Source: Escherichia coli
Lineage (GTDB): Bacteria; Pseudomonadota; Gammaproteobacteria; Enterobacterales; Enterobacteriaceae
Assembly: GCF_045037415.1 (NCBI RefSeq)
Contig: NZ_CP173438.1
Reading direction: 5' to 3' (one strand)
Length of the DNA: 64,000 nt
The translations under genes were made by a program, and so were the position numbers. A model generated the notes under the pieces. The model saw only the letters and a program-made list of their open reading frames with translations, did no database searches and was not told the DNA's origin. Below are positions 44,233-64,000 of the stretch, in pieces (position 1 is the first letter of the stretch; each line of letters opens with the position of its first letter).

Positions 44233-44268
44233 TGCCGCTTCGTTTTTTCTTAGCGGCGCGGGGTGTGC

Positions 44269-44387: not shown

Positions 44388-44415
44388 ATTATAGGGAGTT
44401 ATTCCGGCCTGACAA
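44388..44415 (-). promoter_or_regulatory. rrnC P1 promoter (-35 TTGTCA, -10 TATAAT) with AT-rich UP element upstream (about 44416-44460)
   Basis: rc reads TTGTCAGGCCGGAATAACTCCCTATAATGCGCCACCAC. Confidence 0.8.
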
Positions 44416-44567
44416 GAGGAAATTTAAAATAATTTTCTGACCGCGCATTTTTTCAGCAAAAGCCCCGTTAATGTGCCATAAAACAAGCAATTTGCCGTTT
44501 TTGCAACCGTAATCACACTTCCTGGTGGCATACTAAGGAGGAATAAAAAGAAAAAGGAAGATTAGTA

Positions 44568-45260: not shown

Positions 45261-45282
45261 TAACCCGATAACAGGACTTTGA

Positions 45283-46710
45283 ATGAGCGATAAAAAGAAG
45301 CGCAGTATGGCGGGTTTGCCGTGGATCGCGGCGATGGCCTTCTTCATGCAGGCACTTGATGCCACTATTCTGAATACCGCCTTACCCGCAATCGCTCATA
45401 GCCTTAATCGTTCTCCTCTCGCGATGCAATCAGCCATCATCAGTTATACGCTGACGGTGGCGATGCTTATTCCGGTAAGCGGATGGCTAGCCGATCGCTT
45501 CGGTACGCGTCGCATTTTTACCCTTGCCGTGAGTCTGTTCACGTTGGGTTCTCTGGCCTGCGCACTTTCCAACTCGCTACCACAGCTGGTTGTCTTCCGG
45601 GTTATTCAGGGGATAGGCGGCGCAATGATGATGCCTGTTGCTCGGCTGGCCTTACTGCGCGCTTATCCTCGTAATGAACTTCTTCCTGTATTGAATTTTG
45701 TCGCCATGCCGGGTCTGGTGGGGCCAATTTTAGGCCCCGTTCTTGGCGGCGTGCTGGTCACCTGGGCAACCTGGCACTGGATATTTTTAATCAATATCCC
45801 CATAGGTATTGCGGGCCTTCTTTACGCGCGCAAACATATGCCCAATTTCACCACCGCACGACGCAGATTCGATACCACTGGCTTTTTGCTGTTTGGCCTC
45901 AGCCTTGTTCTCTTCTCAAGCGGAATAGAGCTATTCGGGGAAAAGATTGTCGCCAGCTGGATTGCCTTGACGGTAATTGTCACCAGCATCTGGTTACTGC
46001 TTCTCTATATTCTCCATGCGCGACGCACGCCAAACCCATTAATTTCATTAGATTTATTTAAAACCCGCACTTTCTCGATCGGTATCGTAGGCAATATTGC
46101 AACCCGTCTGGGGACCGGCTGTGTACCGTTCCTTATGCCATTGATGTTACAGGTAGGATTTGGGTATCAGGCGTTTATTGCTGGCTGTATGATGGCACCG
46201 ACAGCGTTAGGTTCCATTATTGCAAAATCGATGGTTACCCAAGTCTTACGTCGTCTGGGCTATCGCCATACGTTAGTGGGGATCACGGTGATTATTGGGC
46301 TAATGATCGCTCAGTTCTCTTTGCAATCACCAGCAATGGCGATATGGATGCTGATCTTGCCGTTGTTTATATTAGGGATGGCTATGTCGACGCAATTTAC
46401 CGCGATGAATACCATCACACTTGCCGATCTGACCGATGACAACGCCAGCAGCGGTAACAGTGTTCTGGCGGTCACGCAGCAACTGTCTATCAGTTTAGGC
46501 GTTGCTGTAAGTGCGGCCGTCCTTCGCGTTTACGAAGGGATGGAAGGCACAACGACAGTCGAACAATTCCACTATACGTTTATCACGATGGGCATTATTA
46601 CTGTTGCTTCAGCAGCAATGTTCATGCTACTGAAAACAACCGATGGTAATAATTTGATCAAAAGACAGCGTAAATCTAAGCCGAACCGCGTTCCATCAGA
46701 ATCGGAGTAA
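45283..46710 (+). CDS. hsrA: MFS transporter HsrA/YieO (475 aa)
   Basis: ORF track; polytopic membrane protein. Confidence 0.85.
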
Positions 46711-47668
46711 GTTGTAATCGTTGTTGCTGTAGGGTCGGCTGGGTTATCCGATGGATGAGTACATCAATCGCCAGCTCCCCCAGTTCATCTTTCGGTTGGT
46801 GTATAGTTGTTAATGGTGGCGTCATAAAGCTTGCCAGTTCGATATCGTCATAGCCAATCACCGCGATATCCTGCGGAACCTGTAACTCTGCCTGATATAA
46901 CGCCTGGTAAACGCCAACAGCCATAGCGTCATTTCCGGTAAAGACGGCCTGAGGACGCAGCGGATGTGATAACAGTTGGCGCATAGCGTCAAACCCGCCG
47001 TTAAATTCAAAATCACCAGTGACTTCATAGCCATCAGGAATGTTGAGACCCGCACGTTTCATCGCAGCCCGATAACCTTCCAACCGCAGGCGCGCCGGAG
47101 TTTTATCCAGCGGACCGGTAATACAGGCAATACGGGTATGACCTTTATCGATCAGATATTGCGTTGCTAAGTCTCCGCCCAGCAACGAGTTATCCTGAAT
47201 AAGATCGCTGTCGCCATCGAACGGAGCCCAGTCCATCATCACGGTAGGCACTGTCGGATAACGTTGCATGATTTCACGCGAAGGCTGATGCGTTTCGGTG
47301 CACAGTAACAGCAAGCCATCAACGCGTTTTTGCATCAGCGTTTCCAGATTACGATTCATCCGCTGTTCATCGCCTTCGGTATTGCAAAGGACAAGACTAT
47401 AACCGCGTTCGAAGCAGCTGCGTTCAACGCCACGCACCAGTTCTGAATAGAAAGGATTGGTACTGGCAGTGATCAACATGCCAATGGTATGTGTTTGATT
47501 GAGTTTGAGGCTACGCGCCAGAGCTGATGGCGCGTAATTGAGTTCTTTAATCGCCGCTTCAACTTTGGCTGTAATCGCTTCACTGACGAAGCGATCTTTA
47601 TTGATAACGTGAGAAACTGTTGAGGTAGAAACGCCCGCCAGGCGGGCAACATCTTTCATTGTAGCCAA
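46676..47668 (-). CDS. rbsR: Ribose operon repressor (LacI family, 330 aa)
   Basis: ORF track; [24 protein letters not shown] helix-turn-helix. Confidence 0.95.
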
Positions 47669-47671
47669 GCG

Positions 47672-48601
47672 TCACCTCTGCCTGTCTAAAAATGCGTCGA
47701 TCTCTTCACGCCACGGTACGGAAGGTTGTGCGCCTTTACGTGTTACGGCAATCGCAGCGGCTGCATGGGCAAAACGAATCGCCTCTGGCAATGTTTTTTC
47801 TTCCAGCAACGCCGTGATTAACGCGCCGTTAAAGGTATCTCCGGCAGCAATGGTATCGACAGCCTGCACCCGGAATCCAGGAACGCGCTGACCTTCACCA
47901 TTCACGCTAGCCCATACACCACGACTTCCTAAAGTAATCAGTACAGTACGGATACCTTTTTCATGCAGTACCTGCGCCGCCTTCGCTGCATCTTCATCAT
48001 TTTCAACACGAATACCGGTGAGCTTTTCTGCTTCCGTTTCGTTTGGCGTAATAATGTCCACCAGCGCCAGAAGTTCGTCAGGAAGTTCGCGAGCCGGAGC
48101 CGGGTTAAGCGCAACGATAGTCTTATTTTGATGGGCGATTTTCGCCGCTGCCATCACACTTTCGAGTGGTGATTCCAGCTGCATTAATAATGCCGACGCG
48201 TTGGCAATACGCTCACGTTGCGCTTCCACCAGCGCCGGGGAAAGGGCAGCATTAGCGCCGGCATGAATACCGATGACATTCTCACCTTCGCCATTAACAA
48301 AAATCAGCGCCACACCTGTTGATTCGCCTTTGATCACGCTGACCGGAGAAATATCGATATTATCAGTGGCGAGCTGCTGGCGAACGCTCTCACCAATGCT
48401 GTCATCGCCAGTGCAGGCAATAAACGCGATATTCGCACCGCTACGCCCAGCAGCCACCGCCTGATTCGCGCCTTTGCCGCCAAATGCAACCTGATAGTGG
48501 TTACCGGTTACGGTTTCGCCTGGAGTAGGAAAAGATTGAAGATTAAGAATGTGGTCAGCATTAATGCTGCCAAGAACAACGAGGCTGCCTGCGTTTTGCA
48601 T
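47672..48601 (-). CDS. rbsK: Ribokinase (309 aa)
   Basis: ORF track 47672..48628; start trimmed to MQNAGSLVVLGSINADH. Confidence 0.95.
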   Translation of the reverse strand: MQNAGSLVVLGSINADHILNLQSFPTPGETVTGNHYQVAFGGKGANQAVAAGRSGANIAFIACTGDDSIGESVRQQLATDNIDISPVSVIKGESTGVALIFVNGEGENVIGIHAGANAALSPALVEAQRERIANASALLMQLESPLESVMAAAKIAHQNKTIVALNPAPARELPDELLALVDIITPNETEAEKLTGIRVENDEDAAKAAQVLHEKGIRTVLITLGSRGVWASVNGEGQRVPGFRVQAVDTIAAGDTFNGALITALLEEKTLPEAIRFAHAAAAIAVTRKGAQPSVPWREEIDAFLDRQR

Positions 48602-48726
48602 ATTCGGGATGTCCATAAAATGCGCCACCGTGTTAGGGTGGCGCGTGCCCTGCTTTTCTTTATATTACACGTTCATCTGTCGATGACGTATTTATGTCAC
48701 CATCAGGTCATACAACCTGATTAAAA

Positions 48727-49617
48727 CTACTGCTTAACAACCAGTTTCAGATCAACCGGATACTTAGCCTGAACTTTCTCTCCTTTCAGCACTTTATCTG
48801 CGGTTTCGACGCCTTTCGCGCCAATCTGATCGGGTAGCTGAGCGATAGTCGCTGCTAGTTTGCCATCATTCACCGCTTTTTCGCCATCCGGTGTACCGTC
48901 AAATCCGACGACCATCACATCCGATTTACCGGCAGTTTGCAGTGCGCGCAGCGCGCCAAGCGCCATTTCATCATTCTGCGCGAATACAGCCTGAACATCC
49001 GGATGAGCGGTCAACAGGTTCTGCATTACGTTCAAGCCTTTGGTGCGATCAAAATCTGCAGGCTGGCTGGCAAGAACATTAAACTTGTGAGCAGCAACGG
49101 CCTGCTGGAAACCTTCGCCACGTTCACGGGCTGCGGATGTACCGGCAATGCCTTGCAGCTCGATAACTTTGGCACCTTCACCCGCTTTCTTCGCGATGTA
49201 ATCACCGGCGATTTTGCCGCCCAGTACGTTATCAGATGCGATGTGGCTCACCACTTCACCTTTCGTTGCCTGGCGGTCAAGAGTGATAACCGGGATGTTC
49301 GCCTGGTTAGCCATCTTCACAGCATTACCTACTGCGTCGGAGTCGGTCGGGTTAATCAGCAGAATTTTGGTGCCGCGGACGGTTAAGTCCTGCACGTTCG
49401 CCAGCTCTTTCGCCGGGTTGTTCTGGGAGTCCAGCACCACCAGGTTATAGCCAAGTTTATCCGCCTCTTTCTGCGCGCCATCTTTCAGCGATACAAAGAA
49501 CGGGTTGTTAAGCGTGGAGACCACCAGCGCGATGGTGTCTTTTGCCATCGCATTCGCACTGACGGTGGCGCTTAGCGCAACAGCGGAAACCAGGGTAGCC
49601 AGTTTTTTCATGTTCAT
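48727..49617 (-). CDS. rbsB: Periplasmic ribose-binding protein with signal peptide
   Basis: ORF track 48727..49623; start trimmed to [25 protein letters not shown]. Confidence 0.95.
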
Positions 49618-49641
49618 ATTCAAGATGTCCTGTAGTCGTTA

Positions 49642-50607
49642 TTACTGCTTTTTGTTGTCTACCAGCACCGCCAGCAAAATCACCACCGCTTTGACGATCA
49701 TCTGGTAATAGGAGGAAACACCTAACAAATTCAATCCATTATTAAGGAAGCCAAGAATTAATGCGCCGATCAACGTCCCAACAATGCGACCTTTTCCGCC
49801 CGCCAGACTCGTACCGCCCAGAACCACCGCAGCAATAGCATCCAGCTCATAGCCAGTCCCCGCCGTGGGTTGTGCGGAGGAGAGACGCGCCACTTCAATG
49901 ATCCCGGCCAGCGATGCCAGCAGACCACAAAGAGAATAGACGATGATTTTGATTTTATTGACGTTGATACCAGAAAGACGCGTTGCCGCTTCGTTGCCGC
50001 CCAGCGCGTAGATGTAACGCCCCAGACGCGTGTGATGCAGCATGTACCAGGCCGCGAGGAAGACAATCCCCATGATCCAGACTGGCGTCGGTACGCCCAG
50101 CGGACGACCAATACCAAACCAGCCAAACAGATCGGCGTTCTCAGTAAAGCCGGTATTCACTGGGCTACCATTGGTATAAACCATGGTCACGCCGCGCAGT
50201 AAAAGCATCATAACCAGCGTAGCGATAAACGCCTGGACGCGACCTTTCGCTACAATCACCCCAGTTACCGCACCAATTGCGGCACCTAACGCGAGAGCGG
50301 CAGCGACAGCCACCAGCGCATTGACTTCAATGCCGACGATAGATGCAGCAACTGCGCCGGTCAGCGCCAACAGAGAACCTACCGACAAGTCGATACCCGA
50401 CGTCAGGATCACCAGCGTCATCCCGACCGCCATAATGGCGTTCACCGAGGTTTGCTGAAGAATATTGAATAAGTTATTGATGGTGAAAAAGTTCGGGCTT
50501 AACGTCGAGACAATCGCGATCAGCACCAGCAGAGCGATAAGCGATTTCTGCTCCATCAGCCACGCTTTCGTGAAATAACGGCGACCAGAGACAGTCTGGG
50601 TTGTCAT
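49642..50607 (-). CDS. rbsC: Ribose ABC transporter permease
   Basis: ORF track 321 aa. Confidence 0.95.
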   Translation of the reverse strand: MTTQTVSGRRYFTKAWLMEQKSLIALLVLIAIVSTLSPNFFTINNLFNILQQTSVNAIMAVGMTLVILTSGIDLSVGSLLALTGAVAASIVGIEVNALVAVAAALALGAAIGAVTGVIVAKGRVQAFIATLVMMLLLRGVTMVYTNGSPVNTGFTENADLFGWFGIGRPLGVPTPVWIMGIVFLAAWYMLHHTRLGRYIYALGGNEAATRLSGINVNKIKIIVYSLCGLLASLAGIIEVARLSSAQPTAGTGYELDAIAAVVLGGTSLAGGKGRIVGTLIGALILGFLNNGLNLLGVSSYYQMIVKAVVILLAVLVDNKKQ

Positions 50608-50611
50608 TTTT

Positions 50612-52117
50612 TTACTCCTGATTCACGCGATTAAGCTTGCCCACAGCGGCAGCCATTAACACTTCTTGGGTGGCCTGCTCACGAGTAAATTCCCCGCTGA
50701 GATGCCCTTCATGCATGACGATGATGCGATCGCTCATGCCTAATACTTCTGGCATCTCCGATGACACCAGAATGATGCTCAAGCCATCGGCTTTGAACTG
50801 GTTAATCAGTTGATAGATCTCTTTTTTCGCGCCGACATCTACGCCACGGGTAGGCTCATCGAGGATCAACACTTTAGGGCGTGTCATCAGACCACGGGCA
50901 ATCGCTACTTTTTGCTGATTGCCACCGGAAAGCAGACCAATTGCCTGTTCCATCGATGGCGTTTTCACATTAAACAGACGAATGAAATCACTCACAGCCT
51001 GCTGTTCATCGGCATGCTTCAAACTGCCGCCAGCGCGGCTGAAGTAGCGCAGCGCGGTCAGCGACATGTTCTCTTTTACTGACATGCCCAGCACTAAACC
51101 GTCACGTTTACGGTCTTCGGAGATATAAACAATGCCGTTTGCCAGGCCATCCTGCGGCGAACGGGTAACGACTTCATGCCCATCCAGGGTGACGTAACCG
51201 CTTGTGCGCGGCAGTGCGCCGTAGAGCACTTTCATCAGTTCGGTACGCCCAGCGCCCATCAAACCAGAGACGCCAAGAATTTCGCCTTTGCGTAAAGTAA
51301 AAGAGACATCGTTAACGCCAGGTCCGCAGAGATTATCGACTTTCAGGCGGATATCTCCCGGCGCTTTGTCCAGGTGCGGATATTGATCTTCCAGCTTGCG
51401 GCCCACCATCATCTCAATCAGAGAATCTTCGGTCAGTGATGCCACTTCACGCTCAGCAATAAATTGTCCGTCACGAAAAACGGTAACGTCATCGCAAATC
51501 TCGAAGATTTCTTTCATGCGGTGGGAGATATAGACAATACCGCGGCCTTGCAATTTCAGCTCGCGGATGACGCGGAACAAGGATTCGGTTTCGGTATCGG
51601 TCAGCGCATCGGTCGGTTCATCCATAATGATGACTTTCGACTCAAAGCTCAGCACTTTGGCGATTTCAACCATTTGCTGGTCACCGATGGAAAGATCACC
51701 CACCAGTTTGTCGCTTTTAAAGCGCAGGTTAAGTTTAGCCAGCAATTTATCCGCTTCGGCATACATGGTTTTCCAGTCAATTTTGCCAAAGCGATTAACA
51801 AACTCACGACCGAGGAAAATGTTTTCGGCAATGGTTAACTGCGGGATCAGGTTCAGTTCCTGGTGGATAATCCCAATCCCGGCTTCCTGGGAAGATTTCG
51901 GCCCGGTAAATGTCGTTTCTTTCCCCAACCATAAAAGCGTACCGGCATCGCGAGTATAGATACCAGTAAGCACTTTCATCATGGTGGATTTACCCGCGCC
52001 GTTTTCGCCCACCAGCGCCATCACGCGGCCCGGATAGACATTTAACGCTGCGCCCGAGAGGGCTTTTACGCCCGGAAAGGCTTTATCGATGCCTTTAAGC
52101 TGAAGTAATGCTTCCAT
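50612..52117 (-). CDS. rbsA: Ribose ABC transporter ATPase (two ABC domains)
   Basis: ORF track 501 aa; Walker [10 protein letters not shown]. Confidence 0.95.
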
Positions 52118-52124
52118 GACGGCC

Positions 52125-52544
52125 TCAGAACGTCACGCCAGCACAGAGAATGATATTCGCATACGGAGAACATTCTCCGCTGCGAATTACCGCCTGACTT
52201 TCTGCGGTTTGTTGTTTGAATTGTTCATGCGTGGTGTAACGAATTTCAATGGTGTTTCCCTGGTGTTGTTGCAGCTGCTCAAGGTGAGTGAGCAACGTTT
52301 CGTGGAGTTGCGGATTATGTTGTTTGATCTCTTCCGCGATAATGACAGCCTCGACCTGCATTTCATTTGTGACGACGCCCAGCACCTGCATAAAAGAAGG
52401 TACACCCTGGGTTAATGCCATATCGATACGCGTTGTACTTTTGGGGATGGGTAAACCAGCATCACACACCACCAGCGTATCGGTATGTCCCAGTCGGGAG
52501 ATCACCGATGAAATATCAGAATTAAGAACGGTGCCTTTTTTCAT
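52125..52544 (-). CDS. rbsD: D-ribose pyranase (139 aa)
   Basis: ORF track 52125..52556; start trimmed to [20 protein letters not shown]. Confidence 0.9.
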
Positions 52545-52556
52545 TTTTTTCTCCAT

Positions 52557-52574
52557 CAGCGAAACGTTTCGCTG
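52557..52574. promoter_or_regulatory. RbsR operator candidate: perfect 18-bp palindrome CAGCGAAACGTTTCGCTG
   Basis: Sequence is its own reverse complement; sits 13 bp upstream of the rbsD start codon; LacI/GalR-type CG-centred half-sites. Confidence 0.7.
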
Positions 52575-52710
52575 ACCCGCAGTTTAATCCTGACTGAGTT
52601 GGGAAAACCATCGTGACGTTACGGAAATGTGATCAACCTCGAAACGTTTTACATGGTGATTAACCATGAAAACAAAAACGCCCCCTTATGGAGAAAGGAG
52701 GCGTCTGGCG

Positions 52711-54579
52711 TTAGATTTCGACCTGAGTACCCAGTTCGATAACTCTGTTTGGCGGGATTTCAAATTGATCCGGTGCCCGCAGCGCATTACGTTGCAGCAG
52801 CAAGTACAGCTTGCCGCGCAGACGCAAATACCACGGGCGTTTGCCGAGGATCAACGACTCATGCGACATAAAGAAGGAGGTTTCCATCATCCGGCAGCTT
52901 AATCCTTCCAGACCGCAGCGGTGGAAAACTTCTTCCACGTTTGGCGTTTCTCGCCAACCATAACTTGCCACCACGCGCCAGAAAGTGGGCGACAGTTGTT
53001 CAATCTGTACCCGACGGACGTTATGGACATATGGCGCGTCTTCGGTGCGCAGAGTTAACAGAATCACCCGCTCATGCAATACCTTGTTATGTTTAAGGTT
53101 ATGCATCAGCGCAAAGGGAATGACGTTGATTGCACGCGACATATACACCGCGGTCCCAGGCACGCGAACGGGCGGTGATTTCTCCAGCGAAGCAATCATC
53201 GCTTCCAGAGAGTTACCATGTTCATGCATCCGCCGCAGCAAGCGGAAACGCTCGCTCTTCCAGGTGGTCATCACGATAAACATCACCGTACCGAGGCTCA
53301 ATGGCAACCAGCCACCGGAGAGCAGTTTATCGAGGTTAGCGGTGAACAAGGGAATATCGACACAAAGGAAAGCAATCAGGATCAGCGCAACAAAATACTT
53401 ATTCCAGTGCCAGTTCTGACGTGCCACGGTAGTCGAGAGAATAGACGTCAGCACCATGGTTCCGGTCACCGCAATCCCGTACGCCGCCGCCAGGTTGCTG
53501 GAGTGCTCAAAGCTGACAATCACAATCACGACCGCGACATAGAGCATCCAGTTCACAAAGGGAATATAGATTTGCCCTGACTCCATTTCGGAGGTGTGAA
53601 TAATGCGCATCGGCGACAAATATCCCAGACGTACCGCCTGACGCGTCAATGAGAAGACGCCAGAGATAACCGCCTGCGAGGCAATTACCGTCGCCAGTGC
53701 GGCGATGATCAGCAGCGGGATCAGCGCCCAGTCCGGTGCCAACAGGAAGAACGGGTTCTTAATCGCTTCCGGATTCTTTAACAACAGCGCTCCCTGGCCG
53801 AAGTAATTAAGGGTTAAGGAAGGCAATACGACGGTGAACCACGCCAGACGAATAGGGAACTTACCAAAGTGCCCCATATCAGCATACAGCGCCTCGACCC
53901 CCGTAATCGACAGCACCACTGCCCCTAATGCAATAAAAGAAACCGTTTTGTATTCAAGGAAGAAATGCACCGCCCACATCGGATTCAGTGCATGCAGCAC
54001 TTCCGGGTTAGCAATAATGCTACGTAACCCCAGCCCTGCCAGAATCAAAAACCAGGTCAGCATGATCGGCGCAAACAGCTTACCGACCATAGCTGTGCCA
54101 TGTTTTTGAATCATGAATAATAATGTGAGAACGATAATTGAGAGGGGAACTATCCAGGTATCCAGCTGCGGGGCGACGATTTCCAGACCTTCAATGGCGG
54201 ACATCACCGAAATAGCGGGAGTAATGACGACTTCACCATAGAAAAAGCTGCCGCCGATTAGCCCCATAATCACCAGCATTGATGTGGTTCGCGCCGACGT
54301 ATTACGCCCGGCAAGCGACATCAACGTCAGGATCCCCCCTTCACCGGCGTTATCTGCCCGCATCACGAAGGTGAGATATTTAATGGAAACCACAAAGATT
54401 AGCAGCCAGAAGATCAGCGATAAAAAGCCAAACACGGCATCGCGTTCAACGCCAAAACCAAACTGGCCGGACAAACATTCACGAAGTGTATATAACGGGC
54501 TGGTACCAATATCGCCGTAGACAACTCCAATCGCCGCGAGGGTAATCGCGGGCAATGATTGCTTATTATCAGTGCTCAT
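52711..54579 (-). CDS. kup: Low-affinity potassium uptake protein Kup (622 aa)
   Basis: ORF track; [32 protein letters not shown]. Confidence 0.95.
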
Positions 54580-54801
54580 AGACTAGTCTTTCGTTGAAAT
54601 ATGAAATGTGTGCTTAGTCCCTTGGCCCACAAAAAAGCGCACAGTATGCACGATTAACGGCAAAATCGTACTCCTAAATGCGGCCACATTAACCTGGCTC
54701 AAAGAAAAATACCCCTCCTTTGAGACTATTTTAGCCACCAGCAAGAAACGTCTATACTCGCAATTTACGCAGAACTTTTGATGAAAGGACGCCACTTCAT
54801 T

Positions 54802-56298
54802 ATGGCTCACCCTCATTTATTAGCGGAAAGAATTTCCCGCCTGAGCAGTTCGTTGGAAAAGGGGCTTTATGAACGTAGCCACGCCATCCGCTTGTGTTTA
54901 TTAGCGGCATTAAGTGGTGAAAGTGTGTTCCTCCTTGGCCCACCAGGTATTGCCAAAAGTTTGATCGCCCGGCGCTTAAAATTCGCCTTTCAGAATGCCC
55001 GCGCGTTTGAATATCTGATGACCCGCTTCTCCACGCCGGAAGAAGTTTTTGGTCCCCTTTCTATTCAGGCGCTAAAAGATGAAGGGCGCTATGAACGTTT
55101 AACCAGCGGTTACCTGCCGGAAGCTGAAATCGTCTTTCTGGATGAGATCTGGAAAGCGGGTCCGGCAATTCTTAATACCTTGCTCACCGCCATTAACGAG
55201 CGCCAGTTCCGCAACGGCGCACTCGTAGAAAAAATCCCGATGCGTCTGCTGGTGGCGGCCTCCAACGAGCTGCCGGAAGCAGACAGCAGTCTGGAAGCGT
55301 TATATGACCGCATGCTGATTCGTCTGTGGTTAGATAAAGTGCAGGATAAAGCGAATTTCCGCTCCATGCTGACCAGTCAACAGGATGAAAATGACAATCC
55401 GGTTCCTGCCTCCTTGCAGATCACAGATGAAGAATATGAACGCTGGCAGAAAGAGATTGGTGAAATTACGCTGCCCGATCATGTATTTGAGCTGATTTTT
55501 ATGCTGCGCCAGCAACTGGATAAATTACCGGATGCGCCTTATGTCTCGGATCGTCGCTGGAAAAAAGCGATCCGCTTATTGCAGGCCAGCGCCTTTTTTA
55601 GCGGTCGCAGTGCTGTTGCCCCGGTTGATCTCATTTTGCTGAAAGATTGCCTGTGGTATGACGCGCAAAGCCTGAATTTGATACAACAACAAATTGATGT
55701 ATTGATGACCGGTCATGCCTGGCAACAGCAAGGGATGTTGACCCGCCTGGGCGCGATTGTGCAACGTCACCTGCAACTCCAGCAGCAACAAAGCGATAAA
55801 ACAGCCTTAACGGTAATTCGTCTGGGCGGCATTTTCAGCCGTCGTCAGCAGTATCAACTTCCTGTTAACGTTACTGCTTCCACTCTGACTCTGCTGCTGC
55901 AAAAACCGTTAAAATTGCATGATATGGAAGTGGTTCATATCTCCTTTGAGCGTAGCGCGCTGGAACAGTGGCTGAGTAAAGGTGGTGAGATTCGCGGCAA
56001 ACTGAACGGTATCGGCTTTGCCCAGAAACTGAATCTGGAAGTGGATAGCGCCCAACATCTTGTTGTACGCGATGTAAGTTTACAAGGCAGTACGCTGGCA
56101 CTTCCCGGTTCATCGGCTGAAGGTCTGCCAGGTGAAATAAAACAACAACTGGAAGAGCTTGAAAGCGACTGGCGCAAGCAACACGCTTTATTCAGCGAAC
56201 AGCAAAAATGTCTGTTTATCCCTGGCGACTGGTTAGGTCGCATTGAAGCCAGCCTACAGGATGTCGGCGCACAGATTCGCCAGGCACAACAATGCTAA
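54802..56298 (+). CDS. ravA: MoxR-family AAA+ ATPase RavA (498 aa)
   Basis: ORF track 54778..56298; start trimmed to [14 protein letters not shown]; Walker A GPPGIAKS. Confidence 0.9.
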
Positions 56299-57743
56299 CG
56301 CTGGATACGCTTAATGTGATGCTGGCCGTCAGCGAAGAGGGATTGATCGAAGAGATGATCATCGCGCTGCTGGCCTCACCGCAGCTGGCAGTCTTCTTTG
56401 AAAAATTCCCACGACTGAAGGCGGCAATCACTGATGATGTTCCCCGCTGGCGTGAGGCGCTGCGCAGTCGGCTGAAAGATGCCCGAGTCCCGCCGGAACT
56501 CACCGAAGAGGTGATGTGCTATCAGCAAAGCCAGCTCCTCTCCACGCCGCAGTTTATTGTGCAGCTACCACAGATCCTGGACTTACTGCATCGTCTGAAT
56601 TCCCCATGGGCAGAACAAGCCCGACAGTTGGTTGATGCTAACAGCACGATCACTTCAGCGTTACACACGCTTTTTCTCCAGCGTTGGCGTTTAAGTCTGA
56701 TCGTGCAAGCAACGACGTTAAATCAACAGCTATTAGAAGAAGAACGCGAACAACTGTTGAGTGAAGTTCAGGAACGCATGACGCTGAGCGGACAACTTGA
56801 ACCGATTCTCGCAGATAACAATACCGCAGCTGGTCGTCTGTGGGATATGAGCGCCGGTCAGCTTAAACGTGGCGACTATCAGTTGATTGTGAAATACGGT
56901 GAATTTCTTAACGAACAGCCGGAACTGAAACGCCTGGCAGAACAGCTGGGGCGTTCCCGGGAAGCCAAATCAATACCGCGCAACGATGCGCAGATGGAAA
57001 CCTTCCGCACCCTGGTGCGCGAACCGGCGACGGTTCCTGAGCAGGTTGATGGTCTGCAACAAAGCGATGATATTTTACGTCTCCTGCCGCCAGAACTGGC
57101 GACACTAGGGATAACAGAACTGGAGTATGAGTTTTACCGTCGGCTGGTGGAAAAACAGTTGCTCACCTATCGCCTGCATGGTGAGTCGTGGCGTGAAAAA
57201 GTGATCGAACGCCCGGTGGTGCATAAAGATTACGACGAACAGCCGCGCGGACCGTTTATTGTCTGTGTGGATACTTCCGGCTCAATGGGCGGCTTTAATG
57301 AACAGTGTGCGAAAGCGTTCTGCCTGGCCTTGATGCGCATTGCTCTCGCTGAAAACCGGCGCTGCTATATTATGCTATTTTCCACCGAGATCGTCCGTTA
57401 TGAGCTTTCAGGCCCACAAGGCATCGAACAAGCAATCCGTTTTTTAAGTCAGCAGTTTCGTGGCGGCACCGATCTTGCCAGTTGTTTTCGCGCCATTATG
57501 GAACGCTTGCAAAGCCGGGAATGGTTTGATGCCGATGCGGTGGTGATTTCTGATTTTATCGCCCAGCGGTTGCCTGACGACGTGACGAGTAAAGTGAAAG
57601 AGCTACAGCGGGTACATCAGCATCGCTTTCATGCCGTGGCGATGTCTGCACATGGCAAACCCGGCATCATGCGCATTTTCGATCATATCTGGCGCTTTGA
57701 TACCGGGATGCGAAGCCGCCTGCTCAGACGCTGGCGGCGATAA
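56292..57743 (+). CDS. viaA: VWA-domain protein ViaA (483 aa)
   Basis: ORF track; 7-bp overlap with ravA. Confidence 0.9.
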
Positions 57744-57747
57744 ATTA

Positions 57748-58740
57748 TTACAGCAGAGAAGGGACGCTCTCGCGAACAGCTGCCGGCCATACACCACACT
57801 GAACCTGGCCGATATGTGGCAGTTGCAGCAGCAGCATGGTCAAACGAGACTGCCCGATACCGCCGCCGATGGTCTGCGGCATTTCACCGCGCAGCAGCGC
57901 CTGATGCCACTCCAGCTCCAGGCGATCTTCGTCACCGGTCAGCGCCAGCTGATGCTTCAGCGTGTCGGCATCCACGCGGATCCCCATGGAAGAAAGCTCA
58001 AACGCATCTTCCAGTACCGGGTTCCACACCAGAATATCGCCGTTCAGACCCGCATGGCCCAGCTCTGACGGGGTGCTCCAGTCATCATAATCCGGTGCGC
58101 GCACGTCGTGACGATGACCATCACTCAACTTGCCGCCAATCCCGACGAGGAATACCGCGCCAAGATCTTTCGCAATCGCCCGCTCACGCCCTTTGGCATC
58201 GAGATCCGGATAACGAGACAGTAACTCCTGGCTGTGTACGAAGTGGATCTGATCCGGCAGGAACGGTGCCAGGCCAAACTCTTTGCTAACCGCAGCTTCG
58301 GTTGCTTTAATTCCCGCCCAGATCGCCTCTACCGTGCTTTTCAGAGTCGAGAATTGACGCTCGCCGTCGCCCATTACGCGTTCCCAGTCCCACTGGTCTA
58401 CATAGACCGAGTGCAACGGGGAAAGACGGTCTTCATCGGGGCGAAGGGCTTTCATGTGCGTGTACAGCCCTTCGCCCGCGCTGAAGTCGTGTTGCCCTAA
58501 GGTCTGACGTTTCCACTTCGCCAGTGAATGAACCACTTCGAACTGGGCATCAGGCAGAGCTTTCACTTTTACCTGCACCGCTTTTTCACAGCCCGACAAG
58601 TTATCCTGCGTGCCATCCCCCACACGGCTAAGAATCGGCGCCTGGACTTCGATCAGCCCCAGACGTTCTTCCAGTTGACGAGAAAAGTGAGATTTCACGA
58701 AGCTAATTTGACGTTGTTTGGCAATGTAAGCGGTTTTCAT
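57748..58740 (-). CDS. asnA: Aspartate-ammonia ligase (asparagine synthetase A, 330 aa)
   Basis: ORF track; [38 protein letters not shown]. Confidence 0.95.
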
Positions 58741-58891
58741 TTTTTATACTCCTGCGTCCTGTTGCTTATGATTAAGCAACAAAAACCGACACACATGCAA
58801 TAATCATTCAATAAAAAGCCTCACGTGCTTTTGATTCATTAAAAAAGAAGGCTAAAATAGAATGAATCATCAATCCGCATAAGAAAATCCT

Positions 58892-59350
58892 ATGGAAAAT
58901 TATCTGATCGACAATCTGGACCGTGGCATCCTGGAAGCATTAATGGGCAATGCGCGCACCGCTTACGCCGAACTGGCGAAACAATTTGGCGTCAGTCCGG
59001 GGACGATTCACGTTCGAGTAGAGAAAATGAAGCAGGCGGGGATCATTACCGGGGCGCGTATTGATGTCAGCCCGAAGCAGCTTGGTTATGACGTAGGCTG
59101 CTTTATCGGCATTATATTAAAGAGCGCCAAAGACTATCCTTCCGCGCTGGCAAAGCTGGAAAGCCTCGATGAAGTCACTGAAGCCTATTACACAACCGGC
59201 CACTACAGCATCTTTATAAAAGTGATGTGCCGTTCGATCGATGCTCTCCAGCATGTACTTATCAACAAGATCCAAACAATTGATGAAATTCAGTCCACCG
59301 AGACACTGATCGTCCTGCAGAACCCGATCATGCGTACCATTAAGCCCTGA
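58892..59350 (+). CDS. asnC: Lrp/AsnC-family regulator AsnC (152 aa)
   Basis: ORF track; divergent from asnA. Confidence 0.95.
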   Translation: MENYLIDNLDRGILEALMGNARTAYAELAKQFGVSPGTIHVRVEKMKQAGIITGARIDVSPKQLGYDVGCFIGIILKSAKDYPSALAKLESLDEVTEAYYTTGHYSIFIKVMCRSIDALQHVLINKIQTIDEIQSTETLIVLQNPIMRTIKP

Positions 59351-59371
59351 TCGGCTTTTTTAATCCCATAC

Positions 59372-59380
59372 TTTTCCACA
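59372..59380 (+). promoter_or_regulatory. DnaA-box-like 9-mer TTTTCCACA in the mioC promoter region
   Basis: One mismatch from TTATCCACA; 60 bp upstream of mioC start. Confidence 0.5.
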
Positions 59381-59439
59381 GGTAGATCCCAACGCGTTCA
59401 CAGCGTACAATACGCCACTCTTAATAAAGGTGGCGGTTT

Positions 59440-59883
59440 ATGGCAGATATCACTCTTATCAGCGGCAGCACCCTCGGCGGTGCCGAATATGTAGCAGAAC
59501 ACCTGGCTGAAAAGCTGGAAGAGGCGGGTTTTACCACCGAAACGCTGCACGGTCCGCTGTTGGAAGATTTATCTGCCTCGGGGATCTGGCTGGTTATCAG
59601 CTCAACCCACGGTGCCGGAGATATTCCGGACAACCTTTCTCCTTTCTATGAAGCATTGCAGGAACAGAAGCCCGATCTTTCTGCGGTCCGCTTTGGCGCA
59701 ATCGGTATTGGTAGTCGTGAATATGACACCTTTTGTGGGGCTATCGATAAAATCGAGGCAGAACTCAAAAATTCCGGAGCAAAACAGACAGGCGAAACAC
59801 TGAAGATCAACATTCTTGATCACAACATTCCGGAGGATCCGGCAGAAGAATGGCTGGGATCGTGGATTAATTTACTCAAATAA
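59440..59883 (+). CDS. mioC: Flavodoxin-like FMN protein MioC (147 aa)
   Basis: ORF track; MADITLISGSTLGGAEYVAEHLAEKLEEAGF; transcribed toward oriC. Confidence 0.95.
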   Translation: MADITLISGSTLGGAEYVAEHLAEKLEEAGFTTETLHGPLLEDLSASGIWLVISSTHGAGDIPDNLSPFYEALQEQKPDLSAVRFGAIGIGSREYDTFCGAIDKIEAELKNSGAKQTGETLKINILDHNIPEDPAEEWLGSWINLLK

Positions 59884-59895
59884 GTATACAGATCG

Positions 59896-60173
59896 TGCGA
59901 TCTACTGTGGATAACTCTGTCAGGAAGCTTGGATCAAACGGTAGTTATCCAAAGAACAACGATTGTTCAGTTTTTGAGTTGTGTATAACCCCTCATTCTG
60001 ATCCCAGCTTATACGGTCCAGGATCACCGATCATTCACAGTTAATGATCCTTTCCAGGTTGTTGATCTTAAAAGCCGGATCCTTGTTATCCACAGGGCAG
60101 TGCGATCCTAATAAGAGATCACAATAGAACAGATCTCTAAATAAATAGATCTTCTTTTTAATACCCAGGATCC
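59896..60173. other. oriC: Chromosomal replication origin oriC
   Basis: Reverse complement matches the classic E. coli oriC: DnaA boxes R4 (59906-59914), R3-like (59945-59953), R2 (59980-59988), R1 (60086-60094), three 13-mers, 14 GATC sites, BamHI site at 60168-60173. Confidence 0.95.
60108..60151. repeat. oriC DNA-unwinding element: three AT-rich 13-mers (R 60108-60120, M 60123-60135, L 60139-60151)
   Basis: ctaataagagatc, aatagaacagatc, aaataaatagatc are the reverse complements of GATCTCTTATTAG, GATCTGTTCTATT, GATCTATTTATTT. Confidence 0.9.
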
Positions 60174-60261
60174 CAGGTCTTTCTCAAGCCGACAAAGTTG
60201 AGTAGAATCCACGGCCCGGGCTTCAATCCATTTTCATACCGCGTTATGCGAGGCAATCACC

Positions 60262-62151
60262 ATGTTTTATCCGGATCCTTTTGACGTCATCATCATTGGC
60301 GGGGGTCATGCAGGCACCGAGGCCGCGATGGCCGCGGCGCGTATGGGTCAACAGACTCTGCTTTTGACACACAATATCGACACTCTGGGGCAGATGAGCT
60401 GCAACCCGGCGATCGGCGGTATTGGGAAGGGACATCTGGTAAAAGAAGTGGATGCACTCGGCGGTCTGATGGCGAAAGCGATCGATCAGGCGGGTATCCA
60501 GTTTAGGATACTAAACGCAAGCAAGGGACCGGCGGTTCGCGCTACCCGAGCTCAGGCAGATCGTGTGCTCTACCGTCAGGCGGTACGTACGGCGCTGGAG
60601 AACCAACCGAACCTGATGATCTTCCAGCAGGCGGTTGAAGATCTTATTGTCGAAAACGATCGCGTGGTCGGTGCCGTTACCCAAATGGGACTGAAGTTCC
60701 GTGCCAAAGCTGTCGTGCTCACCGTTGGGACGTTCCTCGACGGTAAAATTCATATCGGTCTGGATAATTACAGCGGTGGCCGTGCTGGTGATCCGCCGTC
60801 CATTCCGCTTTCTCGCCGTTTGCGTGAACTGCCGCTGCGCGTTGGTCGTCTGAAAACCGGGACACCACCGCGTATTGATGCTCGAACCATCGACTTTAGC
60901 GTACTGGCGCAACAGCATGGCGATAACCCAATGCCGGTATTCTCGTTTATGGGCAATGCGTCCCAGCATCCCCAGCAGGTGCCGTGTTATATCACTCATA
61001 CCAACGAGAAAACCCATGATGTGATCCGCAGTAATCTCGATCGTAGCCCAATGTACGCAGGGGTGATCGAAGGTGTCGGCCCACGCTACTGCCCGTCGAT
61101 TGAAGACAAAGTCATGCGCTTTGCCGACAGAAATCAGCATCAGATCTTCCTTGAACCGGAAGGGCTGACCTCTAACGAAATTTATCCGAACGGTATCTCC
61201 ACCAGCCTGCCGTTCGATGTGCAGATGCAAATCGTCCGCTCCATGCAGGGGATGGAAAACGCGAAGATCGTGCGTCCGGGTTATGCCATTGAGTATGACT
61301 TCTTCGATCCACGCGACCTGAAACCGACGCTGGAGAGCAAGTTTATCCAGGGGCTGTTCTTTGCTGGTCAGATTAACGGCACTACCGGTTACGAAGAAGC
61401 CGCTGCGCAAGGTTTGCTGGCTGGTCTTAACGCTGCCCGTCTGTCTGCTGACAAAGAAGGTTGGGCTCCGGCGCGTTCTCAGGCGTATCTCGGCGTACTG
61501 GTTGATGACCTGTGCACTTTAGGAACCAAAGAACCGTATCGTATGTTTACCTCGCGCGCAGAATATCGTCTGATGCTGCGCGAAGATAATGCTGATCTGC
61601 GTTTGACTGAAATCGGTCGTGAACTGGGCCTGGTGGATGACGAACGTTGGGCGCGCTTTAACGAGAAACTTGAGAATATCGAGCGTGAGCGTCAGCGTCT
61701 GAAATCGACCTGGGTAACCCCGTCGGCGGAAGCTGCAGCCGAAGTGAATGCTCACCTGACTGCGCCGCTTTCCCGTGAAGCCAGTGGTGAAGATCTGCTA
61801 CGTCGTCCTGAAATGACTTATGAAAAATTAACCACGCTGACACCGTTTGCCCCTGCGTTGACAGATGAACAGGCTGCGGAACAGGTTGAGATTCAGGTTA
61901 AATACGAAGGTTATATCGCGCGCCAGCAAGATGAGATCGAAAAGCAGCTGCGTAACGAGAATACCCTGCTACCAGCGACGCTGGATTACCGCCAGGTATC
62001 CGGTCTTTCTAACGAAGTGATCGCCAAACTTAACGATCACAAACCGGCCTCTATTGGCCAGGCTTCGCGTATTTCTGGCGTCACGCCTGCGGCTATCTCC
62101 ATTCTGCTGGTGTGGCTGAAAAAACAGGGTATGCTGCGTCGTAGCGCATAA
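60262..62151 (+). CDS. mnmG: tRNA uridine 5-carboxymethylaminomethyl modification enzyme MnmG/GidA (629 aa)
   Basis: ORF track; [32 protein letters not shown]-binding N-terminus. Confidence 0.95.
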
Positions 62152-62214
62152 CGCATTAAAAATGCCTGGTAAGCACCCGCTTACCAGGCAACGCATCAAG
62201 AACAGGTAATCACC

Positions 62215-62838
62215 GTGCTCAACAAACTCTCCTTACTGCTGAAAGACGCAGGTATTTCGCTTACCGATCACCAGAAAAACCAGCTTATTGCCTACGTGAA
62301 TATGCTGCATAAATGGAATAAAGCGTACAACCTGACTTCGGTCCGCGATCCTAATGAGATGCTGGTACGCCATATTCTCGATAGCATTGTGGTGGCACCG
62401 TATCTGCAAGGTGAACGGTTTATCGATGTCGGCACCGGACCGGGACTGCCTGGCATTCCACTCTCTATCGTGCGTCCTGAAGCTCATTTCACGTTGTTGG
62501 ATAGCCTTGGTAAACGCGTGCGTTTCCTTCGTCAGGTGCAACATGAGCTTAAACTGGAGAATATTGAGCCAGTACAGAGCAGGGTAGAAGAGTTTCCGTC
62601 AGAGCCGCCATTTGATGGCGTAATTAGCCGCGCTTTTGCCTCTCTGAACGATATGGTGAGCTGGTGCCACCATCTTCCTGGTGAGCAAGGCCGTTTCTAC
62701 GCGCTGAAAGGGCAAATGCCGGAAGATGAAATCGCTTTGTTGCCCGAAGAATATCAGGTCGAATCAGTGGTTAAACTTCAGGTTCCAGCCCTGGATGGCG
62801 AACGTCATCTGGTGGTGATTAAAGCAAATAAAATTTAA
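62215..62838 (+). CDS. rsmG: 16S rRNA m7G527 methyltransferase RsmG/GidB (207 aa)
   Basis: ORF track. Confidence 0.95.
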
Positions 62839-63442
62839 TTTTTATCAAAAAAATCATAAAAAATTGACCGGTTAGACTGTTAACAACAACCAGGTTTTCT
62901 ACTGATATAACTGGTTACATTTAACGCCACGTTCACTCTTTTGTATCAACAAGATAACGTGGCTTTTTTTGGTAAGCAGAAAATAAGTCATAAGTGAAAA
63001 TATCAGTCTGCTAAAAATCGGCGCTAAGAATCATCATTGACTGTTAAAACATTATTAAAAATGTCAATGGCTGGTTTTTGTTATGTAAATGTCATTTATT
63101 AAAACAGTATCTGTTTTTAGACTGAAATATCATAAACTTGCAAAGGCATCATTTGCCAAGTAAATAAATATGCTGTGCGCGAACATGCGCAATATGTGAT
63201 CTGAAGCACGCTTTATCACCAGTGTTTACGCGTTATTTACAGTTTTTCATGATCGAACAGGGTTTGCAGAAAAGTCGCAATTGTATGCACTGGAAAAATA
63301 TTTAAACATTTATTCACCTTTTGGCTACTTATTGTTTGAAATCACGGGGGCGCACCGTATAATTTGACCGCTTTTTGATGCTTGACTCTAAGCCTTAAAG
63401 AAAGTTTTATACGACACGCGGCATACCTCGAAGGGAGCAGGA

Positions 63443-64000
<558 letters not shown>

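What the first reader, a model, noticed from the sequence alone, without database searches (positions are those of the whole stretch)
59896..60173. Complete oriC with readable box architecture
The window contains the full replication origin between mioC and mnmG: a DnaA-box array (R1, R2, R3-like, R4), three AT-rich 13-mers forming the unwinding element, and 14 GATC sites in about 280 bp. Two positions (around 59937-59939 and 59960-59963) differ from my recollection of the K-12 oriC; this may be strain polymorphism or imperfect memory.
Basis: partly seen in the sequence, partly recalled or inferred. Interest (0 to 1): 0.5.

Follow-up and report, generated by a model that had tools for sequence, protein, structure and literature searches.

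The report
Ordinary E. coli chromosomal replication origin
This is the well-known chromosomal replication origin (oriC) of Escherichia coli, complete and intact; its three single-base differences from the laboratory strain K-12 form a natural haplotype found in about a tenth of sequenced E. coli genomes.

Summary
Window 59896-60173 is the E. coli oriC, lying between mioC (59440-59883) and mnmG (60262-62151) in the reverse orientation to K-12. The whole window is 99.97% identical to the phylogroup B2 strain SK1144.

Every named oriC element sits at K-12 spacing: R1, R2 and R4, R3, R5M, the low-affinity DnaA sites, the IHF site, the three 13-mers and the 11 GATC of the minimal origin. The cumulative GC-skew minimum is at 60294.

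There are 13 GATC inside the stated coordinates, not 14. The 14th is at 59891.

The two suspected deviations are exact. They are 59938 (A, K-12 C) and 59961-59962 (GA, K-12 TG).
- They are not errors: 534 of about 5424 complete E. coli genomes carry the same 90-bp haplotype.
- K-12's own haplotype is also a minority (1137 genomes).
- 59938 is in the 2-bp spacer between I3 and C2.
- 59961-59962 are unspecified central positions of a Fis-consensus 15-mer that overlaps C3. Position 59961 has three alleles across the species.

A published 59-genome survey already reported that oriC variation lies mainly in spacers. The finding is already known and of low interest.

The parts
59440..59883 (+). mioC (FMN-binding protein), transcribed towards oriC. 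Left flank of the origin.
   Evidence: 147-aa ORF. Annotated as mioC at the same coordinates in SK1144, which is 99.97% identical to the window.
59372..59380 (+). DnaA box TTTTCCACA in the mioC promoter region (fits the relaxed consensus TTWTNCACA).
   Evidence: [quoted passage not shown]
59906..59914 (-). DnaA box R4 (TTATCCACA), high affinity. Right border of the minimal origin.
   Evidence: Exact consensus. Identical to K-12. MG1655 R4 sequence given in PMC4585315 Fig. S6.
59918..59926 (-). Low-affinity DnaA site C1 (TTCCTGACA on the - strand), 3 bp from R4.
   Evidence: Position derived from the published 3-bp R4-C1 spacing (PMC4451416). Sequence identical to K-12. The site name is assigned from the spacing rule.
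59929..59937 (-). Low-affinity DnaA-ATP site I3 (TTGATCCAA on the - strand).
   Evidence: Derived from the 2-bp spacing rule for the arrays (PMC6727663). Identical to K-12.
59938..59938 (.). SNP: A here, C in K-12 and in Citrobacter. First base of the 2-bp spacer between I3 and C2. Conventional oriC coordinate 236.
59940..59948 (-). Low-affinity DnaA-ATP site C2 (ATAACTACC on the - strand).
   Evidence: 2-bp spacing rule. Identical to K-12.
59945..59953 (+). R3 box TTATCCAAA (1 mismatch to consensus). Overlaps C2 and C3.
   Evidence: The overlap of R3 with C2 and C3 is stated in PMC4585315.
59951..59959 (-). Low-affinity DnaA-ATP site C3 (TTGTTCTTT on the - strand).
   Evidence: The sequence equals the MG1655 C3 listed in PMC4585315 Fig. 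S5. This confirms the coordinates derived from the spacing rule.
59954..59968 (.). Fis-consensus 15-mer GAACAACGATTGTTC, overlapping C3 by 6 bp, dyad centre at 59961. Carries the two SNPs 59961 (G; K-12 T; Citrobacter and O157 C) and 59962 (A; G in every other sequence compared). Conventional oriC coordinates 213 and 212.
   Evidence: The only 15-mer in 59880-60180 that matches all 6 specified positions of GNNYANNNNNTRNNC. Both SNPs fall on N positions. A Fis site that partially overlaps C3 is described in PMC8488378. SNPs.
59965..59979 (.). Second Fis-like 15-mer (ACTCAAAAACTGAAC on the - strand, 5 of 6 consensus positions, T5 centre), 11 bp from the first.
   Evidence: Two closely spaced Fis sites between R2 and C3 are described in PMC8488378. 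Identical to K-12.
59980..59988 (-). DnaA box R2 (TTATACACA).
59998..60006 (+). Low-affinity DnaA-ATP site I2 (CTGATCCCA).
   Evidence: 2-bp spacing rule. Fig. S4 of PMC4585315 lists the ED1a variant of I2 as CTAATCCCA, one base from this 9-mer. Identical to K-12.
60009..60017 (+). Low-affinity DnaA-ATP site I1 (TTATACGGT).
   Evidence: Equals the MG1655 I1 in PMC4585315 Fig. S3. Identical to K-12.
60020..60028 (+). Low-affinity DnaA-ATP site tau2 (AGGATCACC). Coordinates come from the 2-bp spacing rule only.
   Evidence: spacing rule. Identical to K-12.
60031..60039 (+). DnaA box R5M (TCATTCACA).
60055..60067 (-). IHF binding site (GATCAACAACCTG on the - strand).
   Evidence: Equals the MG1655 oriC IBS in PMC4585315 Fig. 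S7. Located.
60086..60094 (+). DnaA box R1 (TTATCCACA), next to the unwinding element.
60108..60151 (-). Duplex-unwinding element: 13-mers R (60108-60120), M (60123-60135) and L (60139-60151). The T-rich strand is the - strand.
   Evidence: 1-2 mismatches to GATCTNTTNTTTT. The least stable 41-mer within 59800-60300 starts at 60123, with summed nearest-neighbour dG -41.7 against a window mean of -57.8 +/- 4.1 (99.9th percentile). Identical to K-12.
60152..60173 (.). AT cluster to the left of the L 13-mer, and the BamHI site GGATCC (60168-60173) that marks conventional oriC coordinate 1.
   Evidence: The AT-rich region flanking L is mentioned in PMC5742627.
60181..60208 (+). Promoter-like site (TTCTCA, 16-nt spacer, TAGAAT) pointing away from oriC into mnmG. 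Consistent with the gidA/mnmG promoter.
   Evidence: consensus scan only; the total number of sites found is at chance level. Its identification as the gidA promoter rests on my own knowledge.
60262..62151 (+). mnmG (gidA). Right flank of the origin.
   Evidence: 629-aa ORF. Annotated as mnmG in SK1144.

Best explanation
This is the native chromosomal replication origin oriC of an Escherichia coli phylogroup B2 strain, and it works as the K-12 origin does.

Established mechanism, inferred here from sequence identity:
- DnaA stays bound to the three consensus boxes R1, R2 and R4.
[quoted passage not shown] One array runs C1-I3-C2-C3 from R4. The other runs R5M-tau2-I1-I2 from R1.
- Growth of the right-hand array displaces Fis from its sites between C3 and R2. 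IHF can then bend the DNA between R1 and R5M.
- The DnaA oligomer opens the three AT-rich 13-mers, binds the T-rich single strand, and loads DnaB.
- The 11 GATC sites of the minimal origin allow SeqA to sequester the hemimethylated origin after it fires.

The three differences from K-12 are a natural lineage haplotype. One is in a 2-bp spacer between two DnaA sites. Two are at central positions of a Fis 15-mer that the consensus leaves unspecified. No indel changes any spacing. They are most likely neutral or nearly so.

Shown here: sequence identity, positions of the elements, genomic context, GC skew and population frequency. Inferred: protein binding and origin firing.
For: - Annotation: the region aligns with the annotated MG1655 oriC with 3 substitutions and no indel.
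- Context: mioC and mnmG flank it. The whole window is 99.97% identical to the SK1144 chromosome, a phylogroup B2 strain (PMC12366417). The region matches chromosomes only, once per genome apart from records split at their start, in 5424 of 5426 E. coli genomes.
- DnaA boxes: consensus boxes are enriched and correctly placed.
- Published sites: C3 and I1 equal the MG1655 9-mers and the IHF site equals the MG1655 13-mer, and I2 fits the published I2 variant. The spacing rules are satisfied.
- Unwinding element: it is the least stable stretch of the origin region.
- GATC: 13 per 278 bp against a mean of 1.36.
- GC skew: cumulative minimum at 60294.
- Polymorphism: the window's 90-bp haplotype is exact in 534 complete genomes, and K-12's in 1137.
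- Fis site: both central SNPs lie on N positions of GNNYANNNNNTRNNC.
- Literature: a 59-genome survey found that E. coli oriC differs mainly in spacers, with conserved spacing (PMC4585315).
Against: Nothing contradicts this reading. Four limits apply.
- Only 3.8 kb lies to the right of the origin, so the GC-skew turn is seen over a short arm, and local minima within 25 units occur between 58.9 and 61.2 kb.
- Binding and firing were not tested and cannot be tested here.
- The G-to-A change at 59962 breaks the otherwise perfect 7-bp inverted repeat GAACAAC.N.GTTGTTC of the Fis site that overlaps C3, so a small effect on Fis or C3 occupancy cannot be excluded.
- The coordinates of C1, I3, C2 and tau2 come from the published spacing rule, not from a printed sequence.
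Confidence: 0.97

Rival explanations
1. The three substitutions are a functional variant. They would alter Fis occupancy at the site overlapping C3, or cooperative DnaA-ATP loading across I3-C2, and so shift initiation timing or synchrony in this B2 lineage, especially at fast growth when Fis is abundant.
For: - 59961-59962 lie at the centre of the only perfect Fis-consensus 15-mer in oriC, and it overlaps C3.
- Fis is proposed to be the main timer of initiation at fast growth (PMC6070618).
- 59962 A occurs only in the window among the 15 sequences compared (10 other E. coli strains, K-12, an E. coli draft genome and 3 Citrobacter), and it breaks the dyad symmetry.
- All three window states differ from the Citrobacter outgroup state.
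Against: - Both Fis-site changes fall on unspecified consensus positions.
- 59961 has three alleles (G, T, C) across E. coli, each in hundreds of genomes, which suggests weak constraint.
- 59938 is a spacer base, and no spacing changes.
- Chromosomal oriC tolerates complete loss of the Fis site and of several DnaA boxes (PMC4585315).
- The adjacent second Fis-like site, with a T5 centre, is unchanged.
Confidence: 0.06
2. The differences from K-12 are sequencing or assembly errors in the window, or the first reader misremembered the K-12 sequence.
For: The window does contain one probable homopolymer error elsewhere: a 7-base run of C (G on the + strand) in leuT where SK1144 has 8.
Against:
- The same 411-bp sequence is 100% identical in at least 30 listed complete genomes.
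- The 90-bp haplotype is exact in 534 genomes.
- An intermediate haplotype exists: SCU-108 has 59938 A with 59962 G.
Confidence: 0.01
3. The region is an oriC-like relic, and the chromosome actually initiates elsewhere.
For: None found.
Against: - Every element is identical to the functional K-12 origin.
- There is a single chromosomal copy per genome across the species.
- The GC-skew minimum coincides with the region.
Confidence: 0.01

Closest known systems
oriC of Escherichia coli K-12 MG1655 (NC_000913.3 3925744-3925975; the 245-bp minimal origin)
   Same: Same locus between mioC and mnmG. R1, R2, R4, R3, R5M, C1, I3, C2, C3, I2, I1, tau2, the IHF site, the second Fis-like site, all three 13-mers and the 11 GATC of the minimal origin are identical. 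All spacings are identical.
   Different: Three substitutions: 59938 A for C (I3-C2 spacer), 59961 G for T and 59962 A for G (centre of the Fis 15-mer overlapping C3). The origin is presented in reverse-complement orientation in the window.
oriC haplotypes of natural E. coli isolates (59-genome survey, Frimodt-Moller et al. 2015, PMC4585315)
   Same: The same pattern as in the survey: changes sit outside the named DnaA, IHF and 13-mer elements, and distances between sites are kept. Variants listed there were seen again here in other strains:
- C3/R3 A/G at 59953
- I1 TTATACGGC in a further strain (SCU-108); the survey lists it for UM146, S88 and IHE3034
- the O157 R 13-mer TATC...
- the 1-nt deletion in O111 11128
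   Different: The window's haplotype (A at 59938, GA at 59961-62) is not described in the text of that paper. Here it was counted in 534 of about 5424 complete genomes, against 1137 for the K-12 haplotype, 742 for C/GG and 1263 for C/CG.
oriC of Citrobacter species (enterobacterial oriC family)
   Same: R4, I3, C2/R3, C3, the Fis 15-mer arms, R2, I2, I1, tau2, R5M, R1 and the three 13-mers are conserved in three Citrobacter genomes.
   Different: Citrobacter has C at the equivalent of 59938 and CG at 59961-62. All three window states are therefore derived relative to this outgroup. The spacers around the IHF site and R1 diverge.

Membership tests
Enterobacterial (E. coli-type) chromosomal origin oriC | Located in the intergenic region between mioC and mnmG (gidA), one copy per chromosome | tested here: met
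   Chromosome-only matches with a median of 1 place per genome in 5424 of 5426 genomes.
Enterobacterial (E. coli-type) chromosomal origin oriC | Three consensus DnaA boxes R1, R2 and R4 (TTATNCACA) at K-12 spacing, with R1 opposite in orientation to R2 and R4 | tested here: met
   60086 on the + strand, 59980 and 59906 on the - strand. No indel against K-12.
Enterobacterial (E. coli-type) chromosomal origin oriC | Two oppositely oriented arrays of four low-affinity DnaA sites, 2 bp apart (R5M-tau2-I1-I2 and C1-I3-C2-C3) | tested here: met
   The spacing rules from PMC6727663 and PMC4451416 place the 9-mers. C3 and I1 equal the published MG1655 9-mers and I2 fits the published I2 variant. All eight sites are identical to K-12. 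DnaA occupancy itself was not tested.
Enterobacterial (E. coli-type) chromosomal origin oriC | Duplex-unwinding element of three AT-rich 13-mers (GATCTnTTnTTTT) next to R1 | tested here: met
   Lowest duplex stability of the origin region, 99.9th percentile of the window. Consensus from PMC5742627.
Enterobacterial (E. coli-type) chromosomal origin oriC | IHF site between R1 and R5M, and Fis site(s) between R2 and C3 | tested here: met
   The IHF 13-mer equals the MG1655 one. Fis 15-mers are centred at 59961 (6 of 6 consensus positions) and 59972 (5 of 6).
Enterobacterial (E. coli-type) chromosomal origin oriC | Dense GATC (Dam/SeqA) sites: 11 in the minimal origin | tested here: met
   11 GATC within 59907-60151 (counted from the positions listed) and 13 within the finding. 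The number 11 is given in PMC5742627.
Enterobacterial (E. coli-type) chromosomal origin oriC | Switch of GC skew at the origin | tested here: met
   Cumulative minimum at 60294. Skew is -0.048 to the left and +0.039 to the right. The right arm is only 3.8 kb.
Enterobacterial (E. coli-type) chromosomal origin oriC | DnaA-dependent initiation of bidirectional replication in vivo or in vitro | not testable with these tools
   Needs minichromosome replication, marker-frequency sequencing or footprinting.

The most novel reading that the evidence does not exclude
The haplotype A(59938)/GA(59961-62) would be an adaptive or at least phenotypically active oriC variant. It is restricted to about 10% of E. 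coli genomes, apparently within a phylogroup B2 lineage. The dyad-breaking G-to-A change in the Fis site that overlaps C3 would change the Fis/DnaA-ATP competition and shift initiation timing at fast growth.
Probability: 0.05. Interest if true: 0.3.

Novelty: already known. Interest (0 to 1): 0.06.

Why it matters
It matters little beyond annotation. The result fixes the window's position and orientation on the chromosome: origin at about 60.0-60.15 kb, the + strand being the leading strand to the right, in an E. coli B2 background.

The one modestly useful by-product is a species-wide count. The stretch between C3 and the centre of the adjacent Fis 15-mer is a small polymorphic hot spot with at least four common haplotypes. 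The textbook K-12 sequence there is itself a derived minority allele. That is worth knowing when K-12 oriC is used as 'the' reference for Fis-site models.

Tried and rejected
- Wrong coordinates. My first 'K-12 allele' query used L001:1291-1380, which is the R5M-R1 half. It only shows that this half is exact in 4572 genomes. I repeated the count with the correct coordinates.
- Majority allele. I assumed the C/GG (O145-type) allele was the species majority. It is exact in only 742 genomes, so I fetched more strains and found a third allele, C, at 59961.
- Outgroup scan. The genome-contig scan with TTATCCAARGAACAANNNTTGTTC returned only one E. coli and three Citrobacter genomes. It found no Salmonella, E. 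albertii or E. fergusonii, so polarity rests on Citrobacter alone.
- Papers not held. Rozgaja 2011 (PMC3192301) and Hengen 2003 (PMC275571) are not in the library. Coordinates of the low-affinity sites were therefore derived from spacing rules quoted in reviews and checked against the printed C3, I1, I2 and IHF-site sequences in the PMC4585315 supplement. The Fis sites 'at 202 and 213' are from my memory only.
- Rfam. The gathering-threshold scan of 44100-64000 found nothing, as expected for an origin.
- Promoter and terminator scan. The number of sites is at chance level. The - strand hit overlapping R4 (59911 to 59883) is not treated as real.
- Sequencing error as the source of the SNPs was rejected.

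Full report
**What is at the coordinates**

Window 59896-60173 reads as the reverse complement of the classical E. coli oriC. The flanking ORFs are a 147-aa ORF at 59440-59883 (+) and a 629-aa ORF at 60262-62151 (+). RefSeq annotates these as mioC and mnmG in strain SK1144, whose oriC region is 100% identical. The whole 64-kb window matches the SK1144 chromosome at 99.97%, with 18 mismatches and one 1-bp gap. SK1144 is listed as phylogroup B2 in PMC12366417.

The gene order to the left of the origin is asnC, asnA, viaA-ravA, kup, rbs, an rrn operon, ilv, rep, rho, the wec/rff cluster and aslAB. To the right it is mnmG, rsmG and atpIB. This is the usual origin-proximal arrangement.

**Is it more than chance?**

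- Three exact TTATNCACA boxes fall within 189 bp. The whole window has 7, against 1.85 +/- 1.26 expected from shuffles.
- Counting boxes with at most one mismatch, the origin holds 5 per 280 bp. The mean is 0.24 and the maximum elsewhere is 3.
- GATC occurs 13 times in the 278 bp. This is the window maximum, with a mean of 1.36 and 8 as the next best.
- From the positions listed, 11 GATC fall within the 245-bp minimal origin (59907-60151), the number quoted in PMC5742627.
- The least stable 41-mer in 59800-60300 starts at 60123, inside the 13-mers. It lies at the 99.9th percentile of the window.
- The cumulative G-C curve of the whole window has its minimum at 60294, about 120 bp right of the finding. 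Skew is -0.048 to the left and +0.039 to the right. The right arm is only 3.8 kb, so this is supportive rather than decisive on its own.

**Anatomy**

The conventional oriC coordinate is x = 60174 - p, where p is the window position. On the window's + strand, from left to right:

| Element | Window position | Note |
|---|---|---|
| R4 | 59906-14 | - strand |
| C1 | 59918-26 | |
| I3 | 59929-37 | |
| C2 | 59940-48 | |
| R3 | 59945-53 | + strand; overlaps C2 and C3 |
| C3 | 59951-59 | |
| Fis-consensus 15-mers | centred at 59961 and 59972 | two overlapping sites |
| R2 | 59980-88 | - strand |
| I2 | 59998-60006 | |
| I1 | 60009-17 | |
| tau2 | 60020-28 | |
| R5M | 60031-39 | + strand |
| IHF site | 60055-67 | |
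| R1 | 60086-94 | + strand |
| 13-mers R, M, L | 60108-20, 60123-35, 60139-51 | |
| AT cluster | 60152-60167 | left of the L 13-mer |
| BamHI site | 60168-73 | marks x = 1 |

The R boxes and 13-mers come from direct scans. The low-affinity sites were placed using two published rules. C1 lies 3 bp from R4 (PMC4451416). The four sites of each array are 2 bp apart (PMC6727663).

I checked this placement against sequences printed in the supplement of PMC4585315. C3 is TTGTTCTTT, I1 is TTATACGGT, I2 fits CTGATCCCA and the IHF site is GATCAACAACCTG. All of these land exactly where the rules predict.

The two arrays face in opposite directions, as described in the literature. A promoter-like TTCTCA-16-TAGAAT at 60181-60208 points into mnmG. 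A relaxed-consensus DnaA box TTTTCCACA sits at 59372-80, upstream of mioC.

**Comparison with K-12**

Alignment with the annotated MG1655 origin (NC_000913.3 3925744-3925975) over 426 bp shows no indel and four substitutions. One is in mioC at 59866. Three are in oriC:
- 59938 A, where K-12 has C
- 59961 G, where K-12 has T
- 59962 A, where K-12 has G

Position 59938 is the first base of the 2-bp spacer between I3 and C2. Positions 59961-62 are positions 8 and 9 of the 15-mer GAACAACGATTGTTC (59954-68). This is the only stretch in the origin that fits all six specified positions of the Fis consensus GNNYANNNNNTRNNC, and both changes fall on N positions. The site overlaps C3 by 6 bp, matching the statement that one of the two oriC Fis sites partially overlaps C3 (PMC8488378).

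Every named DnaA site, the IHF site, the second Fis-like site, the 13-mers and all GATC sites are identical to K-12.

**Population view**

I used 90-mers (59905-59994) so that any single mismatch drops identity below 99%. Counts among about 5424 complete E. coli genomes are below. They are approximate to about +/-26, because some records are split at the origin.

| Haplotype (59938 / 59961-62) | Example | Genomes with exact match |
|---|---|---|
| A / GA | this window | 534 |
| C / TG | K-12 | 1137 |
| C / GG | O145 | 742 |
| C / CG | O157 | 1263 |

The remainder carry further variants, such as the known C3/R3 A/G change at 59953.

- Position 59961, the dyad centre of GAACAAC.N.GTTGTTC, therefore has three alleles in the species.
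- Among the 15 sequences compared (10 other E. coli strains, K-12, an E. coli draft genome and 3 Citrobacter), 59962 A is seen only in the window's haplotype.
- Strain SCU-108 has 59938 A with 59962 G, which is an intermediate. It also carries the I1 variant TTATACGGC that the survey lists for UM146, S88 and IHE3034.
- Three Citrobacter genomes have C at the equivalent of 59938 and CG at 59961-62. The C/CG haplotype is therefore probably ancestral, and both K-12's T and the window's A, G and A are derived.
- The left half of the origin (60016-60105) is exact in 4572 genomes.

**Mechanism**

Given its identity with the experimentally dissected K-12 origin, the region should work in the same way. 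This is established knowledge, summarised in PMC4451416, PMC6727663, PMC8488378 and PMC5742627.
- DnaA is held at R1, R2 and R4.
- DnaA-ATP fills the two low-affinity arrays progressively.
- Fis is displaced, IHF bends the DNA between R1 and R5M, and the 13-mers are unwound.
- DnaB is loaded.
- SeqA then sequesters the GATC-rich origin.

None of this was tested here. It is inferred from sequence.

The three substitutions most probably have no effect or a very small one. They lie on a spacer base and on degenerate Fis positions. Spacing is unchanged. The central position varies freely in the species. Chromosomal oriC tolerates even loss of the Fis site (PMC4585315).

One caveat is that 59962 A breaks the perfect 7-bp inverted repeat. 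From my own knowledge of Fis-DNA structures, the composition of the central base pairs affects Fis affinity. The central five base pairs read ACGAT in the window, ACTGT in K-12 and ACCGT in the ancestral state, so the G+C count is 2, 2 and 3. I did not test this.

**Comparison with what is known, and novelty**

This is the textbook origin. Natural variation in E. coli oriC has already been surveyed in 59 genomes. That survey concluded that differences lie primarily in spacers and that distances between sites are conserved (PMC4585315). The window fits this exactly.

The survey states that the oriC Fis site is completely conserved. That statement can only refer to the R2-proximal site, because the C3-overlapping 15-mer differs between K-12 and O157 at 59961. 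The Fis-site coordinates '202 and 213' come from my memory of Hengen et al., and the paper was not available.

**Verdict**

The feature is already known and of low interest.

Noticed in passing
window 59961 (compare L001, L004, L011, L013): The dyad-centre base of the Fis-consensus palindrome GAACAAC.N.GTTGTTC has three alleles in E. coli: G (this window, O145), T (K-12) and C (O157, Citrobacter). The K-12 reference state is a derived minority, exact in 1137 of about 5424 genomes for the 90-bp haplotype.
   Followed up: yes
window 4071-4156 (- strand), difference at about 4077: The tRNA-Leu(CAG) gene (leuT position, in the Arg-His-Leu-Pro tRNA cluster) has a run of 7 C on the gene strand (7 G on the + strand), where the near-identical strain SK1144 has 8. 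This shortens the 3' part of the T arm and acceptor stem by one base. ARAGORN still calls an 86-nt tRNA. It is either a homopolymer sequencing error or a real 1-bp deletion in one of several tRNA-Leu(CAG) copies.
   Followed up: partly
window 31726-31985 (inside ilvD, - strand gene): This is the second-densest GATC cluster of the window, with 8 GATC in 260 bp against a mean of 1.36 per 278 bp. It lies within a coding region and its significance is unknown.
   Followed up: no
window 39175-42467: 11 of the 18 mismatches to SK1144 cluster in the rrn operon (5S, 23S and the 16S-23S spacer), including two adjacent pairs at 40964-65 and 40974-75. This looks like rrn copy heterogeneity or gene conversion rather than point divergence.
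   Followed up: no
L010 (E. coli O111:H- 11128), equivalent of window ~60097: This strain lacks one nucleotide between DnaA box R1 and the R 13-mer. It is the only spacing change seen among the strains fetched. The same deletion is reported in PMC4585315 for O111 11128 and O26 11368.
   Followed up: partly
L011 (Xuzhou21, O157:H7), equivalent of window 60120: The O157 lineage has TATC instead of GATC at the start of the R 13-mer. This removes one Dam/SeqA site from the unwinding element, as listed in PMC4585315 Fig. S1. The window keeps GATC.
   Followed up: partly
window 33681-35327 (- strand): ilvG is annotated as a full-length acetolactate synthase II large subunit in the near-identical SK1144, and the window has no indel there. 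From my own knowledge, K-12 carries a frameshifted ilvG, so this is another non-K-12 trait of the window.
   Followed up: no
window ~541-581: The least stable 41-mer of the whole window by nearest-neighbour dG (-38.9) lies in the intergenic region upstream of aslA. It is even less stable than the oriC unwinding element (-41.7). Low duplex stability alone therefore does not identify the origin.
   Followed up: no
window 59883-59911 (- strand): A promoter-like hexamer pair (TCCACA, 17-nt spacer, TATACT) overlaps R4 and points towards mioC. The total number of promoter-like sites in the region is at chance level, so it is probably not meaningful.
   Followed up: no
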